Positions 16,135 to 62,484 of a DNA stretch of 64,000 bases are shown in pieces. The translations under genes and the position numbers were made by a program. Positions within the stretch are counted from its first letter, which is position 1. Each line of letters begins with the position of its first letter. The DNA is from Escherichia phage UFV-AREG1: the sequence record KX009778; one strand, given 5' to 3'. The notes beneath the pieces were generated by a model. The model was not told the DNA's origin. It saw only the letters and a program-made list of their open reading frames with translations, and did no database searches.

Positions 16135-16335
16135 ATGGTACAAAAATTAATGGCACTTGTTAATGCCATAAAAGGTAATAAAAAACGTATAGCTTTTACT
16201 ATTTCTGCTATGGTAGGAATTTTACTCTGGAACTTTATTTTATCACCAATTGCAATTGCGCATGGTGTTAATATTCCAGTAGTTACTCTTGATACATTTG
16301 TAGATTTAGCATTTGCTTTAGTTGGGTTGATTTAA
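16135..16335 (+). CDS. plus-strand hydrophobic small ORF (possible membrane peptide)
   Basis: 66 aa; AAGGAGG 4 nt upstream of ATG; lies in the 56-61 intergenic interval and overlaps the gene 61 stop by 4 nt. Confidence 0.3.
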   Translation: MVQKLMALVNAIKGNKKRIAFTISAMVGILLWNFILSPIAIAHGVNIPVVTLDTFVDLAFALVGLI

Positions 16336-17360
16336 ATCTTAGCATATTTAGATAGCCGCATTTTAGCCATCAACCCCTGGGCAATATTATTTTTCATATA
16401 TTCCATAATTTGTTCAGGGGTTGCACCTTCCTTTCTAATCATATCATTGACATCTTTTGATTTCCAGGGAGATTTATCCCAAAACATAACCCTTTCTCCT
16501 GCATCAACTAATTTAGTCATTCGCTTGATAGTGTCAGGGTGACGAGGTTCATTATCTAAAACCCACACTCGTCTATCTTTAAATGGAACAACTTCTAGGT
16601 CTAATTGACCACCCGTAATAGCTATACCATTTTCAATAAAAAGTGAATCTATAGGTCCTTCTAGAACATATACATCACCATCTTTAACTCGTTCGACACC
16701 ATAAATTTTTGTTGCCTCAGGATAAGCTTTAATGGTGATATATTTTTGAGGAGCATCTTTCTTTAATGCACGTCCTTGAAAAGACTCAGCTTTTCCGTTA
16801 GCATTATAAATTGGAATAACAAGACGAGGCTCAGAAATTTCCTTTTTGTATGTTCCCGGTGCGATGCTATTAACTAATTTAGGCCATTCGGTTGTAAACC
16901 AAAGATATTTCCATTTATCCTTTGGAATACAACGAGCTTTTACATATTTTATAATTGGATGGTCTTCCGCCAGTTTATCTAATCTAACACATGACGGAAG
17001 AGATTTAATTATTTTCTTCTCAGGTTGTTTAGGAAGTTCTTTAGGTTTTTCTACTGGACGACTTTTACCTTTTTCTTTTCTTATTTCAAAGATATACTCA
17101 CGATATAAATCAGGTTCAAACTCCTTTAAATATATTCCGATTGGTGCATGATAGTTACAGTTATAACAATGAATATTTCCTTCATTATTATCGCCATAAT
17201 ACCATCCACGAGCTTTATTCTGGTCGGTTTTTGAATCTCCACAAACAGGGCATCTAAACCGCAATTTAAAAGTTGAACTATTATTTACTTGTGTGAATTT
17301 AGGTAAATGAGCTAATGCACGGTATGCAAACTCATTATCAATCCAAGGTATTGATGACAT
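16332..17360 (-). CDS. 61: DNA primase gp61
   Basis: 342 aa as T4 gp61; zinc ribbon CPVCGDSKTDQNKARGWYY...CYNC; TOPRIM-like core. Confidence 0.9.
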   Translation of the reverse strand: MSSIPWIDNEFAYRALAHLPKFTQVNNSSTFKLRFRCPVCGDSKTDQNKARGWYYGDNNEGNIHCYNCNYHAPIGIYLKEFEPDLYREYIFEIRKEKGKSRPVEKPKELPKQPEKKIIKSLPSCVRLDKLAEDHPIIKYVKARCIPKDKWKYLWFTTEWPKLVNSIAPGTYKKEISEPRLVIPIYNANGKAESFQGRALKKDAPQKYITIKAYPEATKIYGVERVKDGDVYVLEGPIDSLFIENGIAITGGQLDLEVVPFKDRRVWVLDNEPRHPDTIKRMTKLVDAGERVMFWDKSPWKSKDVNDMIRKEGATPEQIMEYMKNNIAQGLMAKMRLSKYAKI

Positions 17361-17362
17361 TT

Positions 17363-17527
17363 TTACTCTTCTTTTTCTTTAGATTCCTCTTTTTTCTTTT
17401 TAGGAATCTGTTCAGGACCTTTATTTACTACAGCGCCCGACGTTGTTCCAGTAGAGATATTTTCAGGATTACCACCTGAATCTCCAGCTACCATATCTTC
17501 TTTAATAAATTCTTTATATGTTTTCAT
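17363..17527 (-). CDS. small acidic/lysine-rich protein with CTS-like N-terminus
   Basis: 54-aa ORF not in track; my translation MKTYKEFIKEDMVAGDSGGNPENISTGTTSGAVVNKGPEQIPKKKKEESKEKEE. Confidence 0.4.
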   Translation of the reverse strand: MKTYKEFIKEDMVAGDSGGNPENISTGTTSGAVVNKGPEQIPKKKKEESKEKEE

Positions 17528-17528
17528 A

Positions 17529-17885
17529 TTAACCTCTATTCATAAAAGCATTAAAAATTTGGTCATCAATAGAAGGTGCAGCGATATTTTCTGCATCATT
17601 TAGCAAATCATTAATTTCATCAGATAGCATAACACATGTACCTTTATTTCCTGTAATTGTTACTGCGCAATTACGAACGTTTTCTTTATTAAATTTTAGG
17701 TTAATATTTTCGTAATGAAAATCCTTTAATGCTGAATATATTTTTAAAATAAAATTGTCTTTTACTACAATAAACCCAACCTCACTATTAAAACGTGGTT
17801 CATGGAAACTGTAATAAACCTTTTCATCTATAAAATCGTATGAAATTTTTTCCATTTTTAAATATGAAAATTCAGAACTATACAT
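17529..17885 (-). CDS. hypothetical protein
   Basis: 118-aa ORF. Confidence 0.5.
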   Translation of the reverse strand: MYSSEFSYLKMEKISYDFIDEKVYYSFHEPRFNSEVGFIVVKDNFILKIYSALKDFHYENINLKFNKENVRNCAVTITGNKGTCVMLSDEINDLLNDAENIAAPSIDDQIFNAFMNRG

Positions 17886-62010: not shown

Positions 62011-62484
62011 TTATTTGAATGATTTAACGTACTGAATAGAACCTTTACTATTCACAAAGGCAATTTTACCATTTTTGTTATACATGGTAGCAGTACGCTG
62101 ATAGCCATAAGTTTGTTTACCAGATTGATAACCAACTAATGCGAAATTATCTTCACCCATTTTATTCTGTTTAGCGCGAATACGTTCATGGCCATGTGCC
62201 ATAAGAACCTTAGCATCACCAGTTGCAATGGATCGACGAGTTTTTTCATCTTCAACTGTATTAACAAAATCGTCAAATGAATCAAATTTAGCATGAGATT
62301 TATTATACAGTTTTCCATCTACTGCATAATTATATCCTTGTACATCCATCTCAACTTCTGTACCATCATCCAATACAGCAGTGATTTTCTGACCTTTTTT
62401 AAATTTCAAAAGATCAGTAAAAGATTCAGCAATAATTTGAGAATTAATAGCTGCTTCAGTGATAAATTCTTGATATGTTTTCAT
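62011..62484 (-). CDS. internal protein (head-packaged) with capsid targeting sequence
   Basis: 157 aa; N-terminus MKTYQEFITEAAINSQIIAE resembles the CTS of T4 IPI/IPII/IPIII; lies in the IP locus upstream of e. Confidence 0.7.
   Translation of the reverse strand: MKTYQEFITEAAINSQIIAESFTDLLKFKKGQKITAVLDDGTEVEMDVQGYNYAVDGKLYNKSHAKFDSFDDFVNTVEDEKTRRSIATGDAKVLMAHGHERIRAKQNKMGEDNFALVGYQSGKQTYGYQRTATMYNKNGKIAFVNSKGSIQYVKSFK

What the first reader, a model, noticed from the sequence alone, without database searches (positions are those of the whole stretch)
17363..17527. Small protein whose N-terminus mimics the capsid targeting sequence of internal proteins
An unannotated 54-aa ORF just upstream of gene 61 starts MKTYKEFIKE, very close to the MKTYQEFI(A/T)E capsid targeting sequence that directs T4 internal proteins into the prohead and is removed by the prohead protease. 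The rest is a Gly/Ser/Lys/Glu-rich low-complexity tail. It could be an additional packaged peptide, or a remnant of CTS cassette exchange.
Basis: partly seen in the sequence, partly recalled or inferred. Interest (0 to 1): 0.45.

Follow-up and report, generated by a model that had tools for sequence, protein, structure and literature searches.

The report
Free-standing copy of capsid protein's N-fist

Summary
The ORF at 17363..17527 (-) is real. It is gene 61.1 of T4-like phages: annotated in public records, with no published function. Its first ten residues, MKTYKEFIKE, match the internal-protein capsid targeting sequence at 8 of 10 positions, including the four positions known to matter (4, 7, 8, 10). 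No such match appeared in 300 shuffles.

The rest is not low-complexity filler. Residues 2-38 are homologous to gp23 residues 57-93: the prohead-protease cut site (LTE|A) and the N-fist of mature gp23 (66-91). Support: BLASTP E 1e-8; a module HMM finds gp23 at E 1e-11; profile-profile probability 98%.

The family is under strong purifying selection (dN/dS 0.05-0.2). It lay upstream of primase gene 61 in all 44 loci examined. Most lineages carry a longer form with an extra helical N-domain. 96% of members keep a hydrophobic-x-Glu motif in register with the gp23 cut.

Best reading (about 0.4): a prohead-protease substrate that yields a 44-residue N-fist-like peptide with a charged tail. Rivals are a cytoplasmic gp23 mimic and a primase-linked role. 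Targeting, cleavage and presence in virions are untested, and the protein was not seen in one whole-cell proteome.

The parts
17363..17527 (-). Gene 61.1, 54 codons plus stop (TAA at 17363..17365)
   Evidence: ORF list. Annotated as 61.1 in RB14 and T4. PHROG 1823, E 7e-34. dN/dS 0.05-0.2 against relatives.
17498..17527 (-). Leader, residues 1-10 MKTYKEFIKE: resembles the capsid targeting sequence and ends in I-K-E, the predicted gp21 cut after Glu10
   Evidence: 8/10 identical to IPII/IPIII and to Ip4, with 0 of 300 shuffles reaching this. Aligns with gp23 56-65, placing Y4/F7/I8/E10 on F59/F62/L63/E65. Hydrophobic-x-E is kept in 177 of 184 family members.
17414..17497 (-). N-fist-like module, residues 11-38 DMVAGDSGGNPENISTGTTSGAVVNKGP: paralogue of gp23* residues 66-93
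   Evidence: BLASTP against RB14 gp23: 16/37 identical, ungapped, E 1e-8. In the PDB the family profile hits only T4 gp23, E 1.4e-5. The module HMM finds gp23 at E 1.2e-11 among 1955 ORFs, next best E about 1. hhalign probability 98.2%. N-fist = residues 66-91 (PMC7136217).
17366..17413 (-). Charged tail, residues 39-54 EQIPKKKKEESKEKEE. The Lys run is conserved and the remainder varies. The last codons also carry the ribosome-binding region of gene 61.
   Evidence: Family alignments show a K/R-rich run after G-P in nearly all members, while the end varies; the T6-type has a different 62-aa ending. The sequence GAAGAGTAAAAATG links 61.1 to 61.
17533..17536 (-). Shine-Dalgarno GAGG of 61.1, inside the last codons of the upstream AdfA-like gene
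   Evidence: Read directly from the sequence: AGAGGTTAATATG.
16332..17360 (-). Gene 61 (DNA primase), the invariant downstream neighbour of the 61.1 family
   Evidence: PHROG 47, E 1e-106. In 44 of 44 IMG/VR loci the 61.1-family ORF lies upstream of gene 61 on the same strand.

Best explanation
The ORF is gene 61.1, a real protein-coding gene conserved in the non-cyanophage T4-like phages. [quoted passage not shown] The N-fist is the 25-residue N-terminal knot of mature gp23 that lies inside the unexpanded prohead and later clamps neighbouring capsomers on the outside. In this phage the protein has three parts: a 10-residue leader that has the pattern of the T4 capsid targeting sequence, an N-fist-like module, and a lysine-rich charged tail. 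Proposed mechanism: the leader takes the protein into the assembling prohead core, as the helical N-domain may do in the long forms of other lineages. The prohead protease gp21 then cuts after Glu10, in the same register as in gp23. This releases a 44-residue peptide, DMVAGD...KEE, whose N-fist-like part can bind what the gp23 N-terminus binds (scaffold or gp23 lattice) and whose Lys-rich part can bind DNA. Shown here: the homology to gp23, the register of the cut site, purifying selection, and the fixed position next to the primase gene. Inferred only: targeting, cleavage, and the peptide's location and partner.
For: Homology to gp23 53-101: BLASTP E 1e-8; PDB profile search hits only gp23; hhalign probability 98.2%, E 3.6e-14; a module HMM built only from 61.1-family sequences finds gp23 at E 1.2e-11. 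The cut site is in register: I8-K9-E10 aligns with L63-T64-E65, and 65 residues are removed from gp23 (PMC9546572). A hydrophobic-x-E motif is kept at that position in 177 of 184 unique family members, although the sequences upstream are unrelated (a short leader or a roughly 100-aa helical domain). This points to selection on the cleavage motif itself. The leader keeps CTS positions 4, 7, 8 and 10, which are the ones reported to control targeting and processing (PMC9026906). gp23 itself has F-x-x-F-L-x-E at the same positions. dN/dS is 0.05-0.2 with saturated dS. Early RNA timing is not an objection, because ipI, ipII and ipIII are also classed 'early RNA' in the same data set. The module is predicted to be disordered on its own (pLDDT below 50), like the gp23 N-terminus in unexpanded heads (PMC9546572).
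Against: There is no direct evidence of packaging or cleavage. gp61.1 (P39228) is missing from a T4 whole-cell time-course proteome in which its neighbours gp61.2, Sp, gp61.4 and Dmd were quantified. It is not named in a paper that applied mass spectrometry to T4 heads, nor in the supplementary files held for it. No late promoter (TATAAATA) lies near the gene. The gene sits in the replication cluster, fixed next to the primase gene, and not in the internal-protein loci. The mature peptide of this phage would be slightly acidic, unlike the basic internal proteins. Some family members appear to start directly at the module with no leader (L047/L048). Published high-resolution head structures, as far as I could read them, report no unassigned N-fist-like density.
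Confidence: 0.4

Rival explanations
1. Cytoplasmic mimic of the gp23 N-terminus. The protein is made early, stays outside the capsid, and occupies a partner that would otherwise meet nascent gp23 or the protease. The partner could be a host sensor of capsid protein or of protease activity, a chaperone step, or gp21 itself. On this reading the protein is a decoy or timing device.
For: Early RNA class. It sits in a run of early counter-defence or host-interaction genes: an AdfA-like anti-DarT gene next door, spackle and dmd. Bacterial CBASS enzymes are reported to sense gp21 through an exposed loop carrying an L-x-E-type motif (PMC12991175), so a surplus substrate could in principle blunt such sensing. 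The module is predicted disordered, as expected of a linear mimic.
Against: No defence system is known to read gp23 residues 53-93. By my residue count from remembered literature (not checked here), the Lit-activating Gol peptide lies at about 93-122, just outside the homologous stretch. gp21 is reported to act after prohead formation (PMC12991175, PMC9958956). The family is near-universal and syntenic, unlike typical accessory anti-defence genes. The protein was not detected in the infected-cell proteome, which argues against an abundant decoy.
Confidence: 0.25
2. Accessory of the replication machinery. The family works with primase gp61 or helicase gp41, for example through the Lys-rich tail on DNA and the helical N-domain on a replication protein. 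The gp23-like stretch is then an old domain capture with a different present use.
For: In 44 of 44 loci the gene is upstream of gene 61 on the same strand, with a gap of 230 nt or less in 40 of them and 2 nt in T4-type phages. RB43, Ac42 and the Mosigvirus phages RB69 and vB_EcoM_NBG1 show the same order. It is co-transcribed early with replication genes. The K/R-rich tail is conserved.
Confidence: 0.15
3. An upstream ORF that matters only for translational coupling or expression of gene 61; the peptide itself has no function.
For: The stop of 61.1 and the start of 61 are 2 nt apart, and the last codons of 61.1 hold the purine-rich stretch before the gene 61 ATG.
Against: Strong purifying selection acts on the amino-acid sequence. 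In long-form lineages the gap to gene 61 is 30-230 nt, so coupling is not general. The conserved part is the middle of the protein, not its 3' end.
Confidence: 0.03
4. A decaying remnant of recombination with an internal-protein gene (CTS cassette exchange), or a chance ORF.
For: The first 24 nt differ from ipII/ipIII of T4 at one position, and the first 22 nt of T4's own 61.1 equal those of ipI.
Against: Those codons are simply the commonest ones for the same amino acids. The ORF is intact in about 1400 phage records and in 51 clusters at 50% identity. dN/dS is far below 1. The leader aligns with the pre-cleavage segment of long-form relatives and of gp23. No shuffle reproduced the match.
Confidence: 0.02

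Closest known systems
T4 internal proteins IPI, IPII, IPIII, Ip4 and Alt (CTS-bearing prohead core proteins cut by gp21)
   Same: A 10-residue N-terminal leader with aromatic residues at positions 4 and 7, an aliphatic residue at 8 and Glu at 10 (8/10 identical to IPII/IPIII). I/L-x-E cleavage motif. Early-class mRNA, as for ipI-III. Small size.
   Different: It is not in the variable internal-protein loci but fixed next to the primase gene. The mature part is not a diverse basic anti-restriction protein; it is a conserved copy of a capsid-protein segment. Most relatives carry a helical domain of about 100 aa in place of the short leader. Packaging has never been shown.
[quoted passage not shown]
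   Same: Homologous over about 48 residues (gp23 53-101), ungapped through the cut site and N-fist, with 10-19 of 34 positions identical in every lineage compared.
   Different: It lacks the whole HK97-fold body and the first 52 residues of the propeptide. It ends in a Lys-rich tail where gp23 continues into the N-arm. It is expressed early from the replication cluster. It gives no Pfam Gp23 hit.
gp24 vertex protein N-terminus (10-residue propeptide MAKINELLRE cut by gp21)
   Same: The same architecture at the N-terminus: a 10-residue propeptide with hydrophobic 4/7/8 and Glu10, followed by a flexible arm that rearranges on expansion (PMC9546572).
   Different: gp24 continues into a full capsid fold and has no N-fist motif.
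Long-form gp61.1 of RB43, Ac42, KVP40-like, Mosigvirus and other phages (PHROG 2086)
   Same: The same C-terminal module, the same cleavage motif, the same Lys-rich tail and the same position upstream of gene 61.
   Different: These proteins carry a conserved helical N-domain of about 100 residues (pLDDT 76-86, no informative fold match). It is absent from this window and from the RB14 segments searched.

Membership tests
gp61.1 family (PHROG 1823 short form / PHROG 2086 long form) | Sequence match to the family profile over the whole protein | tested here: met
   PHROG 1823 E 7e-34 over residues 1-54. Residues 8-53 also match the C-terminus of PHROG 2086 at E 2.6e-16.
gp61.1 family (PHROG 1823 short form / PHROG 2086 long form) | Position upstream of primase gene 61 on the same strand | tested here: met
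   Window: 2-nt gap. The same order holds in 44 of 44 IMG/VR loci and in RB14, T4, RB43, Ac42, RB69 and vB_EcoM_NBG1.
T4 CTS-bearing internal head proteins | N-terminal leader of about 10 residues with the CTS pattern (targeting residues 4 and 7) | tested here: met
   MKTYKEFIKE against MKTYQEFIAE: 8/10, with Y4 and F7 kept. The roles of the positions come from PMC9026906.
T4 CTS-bearing internal head proteins | gp21 cleavage motif I/L-x-E at the end of the leader (processing residues 8 and 10) | tested here: met
   I8-K9-E10. Hydrophobic-x-E is present in 177 of 184 family members.
T4 CTS-bearing internal head proteins | Actual cleavage by gp21 | not testable with these tools
   Needs proteomics or an in vitro protease assay.
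T4 CTS-bearing internal head proteins | Presence in proheads and virions, and ejection with the DNA | not testable with these tools
   No published detection was found. The protein is absent from one whole-cell proteome table and is not named in the T4 head mass-spectrometry paper or its held supplements.
T4 CTS-bearing internal head proteins | Basic mature protein encoded in the variable internal-protein loci (near e, or near 57B) | tested here: not met
   The gene lies in the 41-61 replication cluster. By direct residue count the mature peptide of this phage has a net charge of about -2. Most relatives do have a strongly basic tail.
Major capsid protein Gp23 family (Pfam PF07068, HK97 fold) | Match to the family model or fold over the capsid domains | tested here: not met
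   No Pfam hit at E up to 10. Only 54 residues long. Homology is limited to gp23 53-101.
Major capsid protein Gp23 family (Pfam PF07068, HK97 fold) | Homology to the cut site plus N-fist segment | tested here: met
   Automated pipelines already label some homologues 'major capsid domain-containing protein'.
Gol peptide of gp23 (activator of the Lit protease) | Covers gp23 residues about 93-122 (range from my own recollection, not checked here) | tested here: not met
   The confident alignment ends at gp23 residue 93-95. The tail aligns only loosely up to residue 101.

The most novel reading that the evidence does not exclude
gp61.1 is a trans-acting N-fist. After cleavage in the prohead, the peptide docks on the gp23 lattice or scaffold at sites normally served by the gp23 N-terminus, and so influences head assembly, expansion or stability. 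[quoted passage not shown]
Probability: 0.15. Interest if true: 0.75.

Novelty: new variant of a known kind. Interest (0 to 1): 0.55.

Why it matters
T4 head assembly is among the best-studied assembly pathways, yet how proteins are recruited to the scaffolding core is still described as mysterious (PMC9958956). This gene is conserved across the enterobacterial, Acinetobacter, Aeromonas and Vibrio T4-like phages. It carries, on a 54-residue protein, the two gp23 features tied to that step: the protease site and the N-terminal segment that faces the core and later locks capsomers. If it is packaged and cut, it adds a component to the T4 head. It would also give a minimal natural substrate for studying core targeting and gp21 specificity. 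If it acts in the cytoplasm, it would be a capsid-protein mimic of a new kind. In either case it suggests that the targeting sequence used in T4 protein-delivery vectors derives from the capsid protein's own propeptide. The question can be answered with one mass-spectrometry run and one deletion mutant.

Tried and rejected
1. Pfam on the ORF: no family at E up to 10.

2. Late promoter: no TATAAATA anywhere near the gene. The same data set classes the true internal-protein genes as early RNA, so timing does not discriminate.

3. Literature: four full-text searches found no functional study of gene 61.1, only gene tables. Two key papers, Miller 2003 and Chen 2017, are not held.

4. Proteomics: gp61.1 is absent from the whole-cell table. 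Nothing was found in the T4 head mass-spectrometry paper or its supplements. For a 54-residue protein this is inconclusive.

5. Concerted evolution with the phage's own gp23: identity averages 14.8 of 30 positions with the phage's own gp23 and 14.3 with other phages' gp23, permutation p 0.04 without phylogenetic control. This is too weak to claim co-evolution, so I treat it as an old paralogy.

7. Extra C-terminal domains of some fused relatives: no PHROG hit.

8. A recent cassette exchange with an internal-protein gene: rejected. Flanking DNA is unrelated, and the leader is conserved in diverged lineages.

9. The search for related loci with the full-family alignment failed for lack of a conserved stretch. 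A module-only alignment worked but sampled only members carrying M[VI]AGDSGG.

Full report
WHAT IS THERE

The window is a Tequatrovirus (T4-like) genome segment. A 751-base stretch around the finding matches hundreds of T4-like phages at 98-99% identity.

It has a GAGG ribosome-binding site. It starts 1 nt after the stop of the upstream gene and ends 2 nt before the ATG of primase gene 61.

It is not unannotated in public records. It is gene 61.1: RB14ORF33 in RB14 and T4p034 / P39228 in T4, labelled 'hypothetical protein' in both. It is PHROG 1823 (E 7e-34). Full-text searches found no functional study, only gene tables.

THE LEADER

T4 ipII and ipIII begin MKTYQEFIAE and ipI begins MKTFKEF; I read these from the T4 record. 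The window's own internal protein Ip4 begins MKTYQEFITE (ORF starting at 62484 on the minus strand, PHROG 3155).

- The 61.1 leader matches these at 8 of 10 positions.
- These two are the only six-frame 10-mers in the window with at least 8/10 matches. No such match appeared in 300 shuffles.
- The review PMC9026906 reports that CTS residues 4 and 7 carry targeting, and residues 8 and 10 carry processing. All four are kept here. The differences lie at positions 5 and 9.
- I-K-E fits the I/L-x-E specificity of the prohead protease gp21 (PMC12991175).

The remainder is not low-complexity filler. Residues 2-38 align without gaps to gp23 residues 57-93.

- BLASTP against RB14 gp23 gives 16/37 identities and E 1e-8.
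- A profile of close 61.1 relatives hits only T4 gp23 chains in the whole PDB (E 1.4e-5).
- A 32-position HMM built only from 61.1-family modules finds gp23 at E 1.2e-11 among 1955 six-frame ORFs. The next best hit has E about 1.
- A profile-profile comparison of the long-form family with 62 gp23 N-termini gives probability 98.2% and E 3.6e-14 over 48 columns, covering gp23 53-101.

The alignment places I8-K9-E10 on gp23 L63-T64-E65. That is the site where gp21 removes the 65-residue propeptide (PMC9546572).

Residues 11-36 correspond to gp23* 66-91, which is the N-fist (PMC7136217). The N-fist is an unusual 25-residue knot. It is disordered and points inward in the unexpanded head. After expansion it moves to the outer surface, contacts four subunits, and helps to form the Soc binding site (PMC9546572, PMC9958956).

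Automated pipelines have noticed the similarity: some records call homologues 'major capsid domain-containing protein'. I found no discussion of it in the literature.

THE FAMILY

- tblastn finds homologues in 1395 phage records.
- A profile search of 1.84 billion representative proteins finds 51 clusters.
- Most lineages carry a long form of 120-180 residues. This is a conserved helical N-domain of about 100 residues followed by the same module and a Lys/Arg-rich tail. Examples are RB43, Ac42, KVP40-like phages and Mosigvirus.
- Mosigvirus belongs to the same subfamily (Tevenvirinae) as T4 and has the long form. In the RB69 reference the gene is split by a one-base deletion.
- T4-type phages have only the 10-residue leader. 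No trace of the N-domain remains in this window or in the RB14 segments searched.
- In all 44 IMG/VR loci found with the module pattern, the gene lies upstream of primase gene 61 on the same strand. In 40 of them the gap is at most 230 nt.
- The module is under strong purifying selection: dN/dS 0.05-0.2 with saturated synonymous sites.

THE CLEAVAGE MOTIF

Of 184 unique family members that could be anchored, 177 have a hydrophobic residue (mostly Leu or Ile), then any residue, then Glu, immediately before the module. This holds even though the sequences further upstream are unrelated between short and long forms.

In gp23 these residues belong to the discarded propeptide. Their conservation in the 61.1 family is therefore best explained by selection for the cut site itself.

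The gp23 family has F at P7, F at P4, L at P3 and E at P1. The CTS has Y, F, I and E at the same positions. The T4-type leader also aligns with the pre-cleavage segment of the Mosigvirus long form: IFKEL against TYKEF. I conclude that the leader is the retained end of a gp23-like propeptide segment and not a cassette borrowed recently from an internal-protein gene. This in turn suggests that the CTS itself descends from the end of the capsid protein's propeptide.

CO-OCCURRENCE WITH THE N-FIST

The more distant, cyanophage-like gp23 sequences lack the GDHGY..IA.G.TSG segment. They have a much shorter stretch between the cut site and the conserved VRRAxP motif. One record labels the 61.1 cluster 'non-cyanophages only'. 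The N-fist in gp23 and gene 61.1 therefore appear to occur in the same clade. I did not test independently whether cyanophages lack 61.1.

Identity between each phage's 61.1 module and its own gp23 is barely higher than with other phages' gp23: 14.8 against 14.3 of 30 positions, p 0.04, with no phylogenetic control. This points to an old duplication kept similar by selection, and not to ongoing gene conversion.

HOW IT MOST LIKELY WORKS

My best reading (confidence about 0.4) has three steps.

1. The protein enters the prohead core, through the leader in T4-type phages and possibly through the helical domain in long forms.
2. gp21 cuts it after Glu10, in the same register as in gp23.
3. This leaves a 44-residue peptide. 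Its N-fist-like part can bind whatever the gp23 N-terminus binds, and its Lys-rich part can bind DNA.

The homology, the register of the cut site, the selection and the synteny are shown here. Targeting, cleavage, location and partner are inferred.

Evidence bearing on this reading:

- T4 61.1 mRNA is early class, but so are ipI, ipII and ipIII in the same data set. Timing is therefore no objection.
- The protein is absent from that study's proteome table, although its four neighbours are present.
- It is not mentioned in a mass-spectrometry study of T4 heads.
- It lies in the replication cluster, not in the internal-protein loci.
- In this phage the mature peptide would be slightly acidic.

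RIVALS

- A cytoplasmic mimic of the gp23 N-terminus acting as a decoy or timing device (0.25). The early counter-defence neighbourhood and the recent report that CBASS senses gp21 make this attractive. No known sensor reads this part of gp23, and the gene is far more conserved than typical accessory genes.
- A primase- or replication-linked role (0.15). This is supported only by the fixed synteny and the basic tail.
- A mere coupling ORF for gene 61 (0.03).
- A decaying remnant (0.02).

The last two are contradicted by the selection data.

DEAD ENDS

The long-form N-domain folds as a helical bundle with moderate confidence. It has no informative structural neighbour. Pfam and PHROG give no function.

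VERDICT

The ORF is a known but uncharacterised conserved gene. Its real interest is that it is a stand-alone copy of the capsid protein's cut site and N-fist. I found this described nowhere, and a single proteomics experiment can test it directly.

Noticed in passing
window 17529..17885 (-): The gene immediately upstream of 61.1 (118 aa) matches Pfam PF23813 AdfA, anti-DarT factor A (E 8.7e-8), but only the C-terminal half of the 211-position profile. T4's own gp61.2 is 208 aa. This phage, like RB14/RB32 (RB32ORF033c), therefore carries a short AdfA-like gene.
   Followed up: partly
window ORF starting at 62484 (-), about 62011..62484: Ip4, an internal virion protein (PHROG 3155, E 6e-102) with the leader MKTYQEFITE. 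It is the window's own bona fide CTS gene and served as an internal comparator.
   Followed up: yes
L003 7099..7662 (-) (RB14 record 67099..67662, RB14ncORF136c): A 187-aa 'hypothetical protein' begins MKTYAEFLTE, a CTS-type leader with an L-T-E site. It may be another internal head protein that is not annotated as one.
   Followed up: no
P0002 / P0004 (T6-type gp61.1, 62 aa): The module is the same, but the tail reads ..KKKKRNLKKKKSKNVINTLD instead of ..KKKKEESKEKEE. This looks like a frameshift in the A-rich run near the end of the gene, so the last 10-15 residues are dispensable or variable.
   Followed up: no
L132 692..1158 (RB69 record 17317..17783) compared with L133 692..1159: In the RB69 reference, the long-form gp61.1 is split into two annotated ORFs (RB69ORF032c and gp61.1) by a single missing A in an A-run. 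The related phage vB_EcoM_NBG1 has one intact 155-aa ORF. This is either a sequencing error or a real frameshift.
   Followed up: partly
P0037, P0053, P0058; L047 4001..4414 and L048 3988..4401: Some family members carry a CTS-like motif (KTFKEF, FKQFVE) after the Lys-rich tail, followed by an extra domain of about 100 aa with no PHROG hit. L047 and L048 seem to start directly at the module (MIAGDSGG) with no leader.
   Followed up: partly
BFVD hits A0A411BBR2 (672 aa), A0A1B1IT15 (913 aa), A0A7S5R3P1 (387 aa), A0A6J7WVK5 (396 aa): Much longer viral proteins align with the long-form gp61.1 model at 21-37% identity over 130-154 columns. The family region may therefore occur fused to larger proteins. 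I could not retrieve their sequences or contexts.
   Followed up: no
L118-L129 (distant, marine-type gp23 loci) compared with L050-L116: Distant T4-like gp23 sequences keep the L-x-E|A cut site but lack the roughly 12-residue GDHGY..IA.G.TSG insert that forms the N-fist. The N-fist therefore seems restricted to the clade that also has gene 61.1.
   Followed up: partly
window 16135..16335 (+): A 66-aa hydrophobic ORF lies on the opposite strand between genes 56 and 61 (annotated RB32ORF030w in RB14). It looks like a small membrane protein.
   Followed up: no
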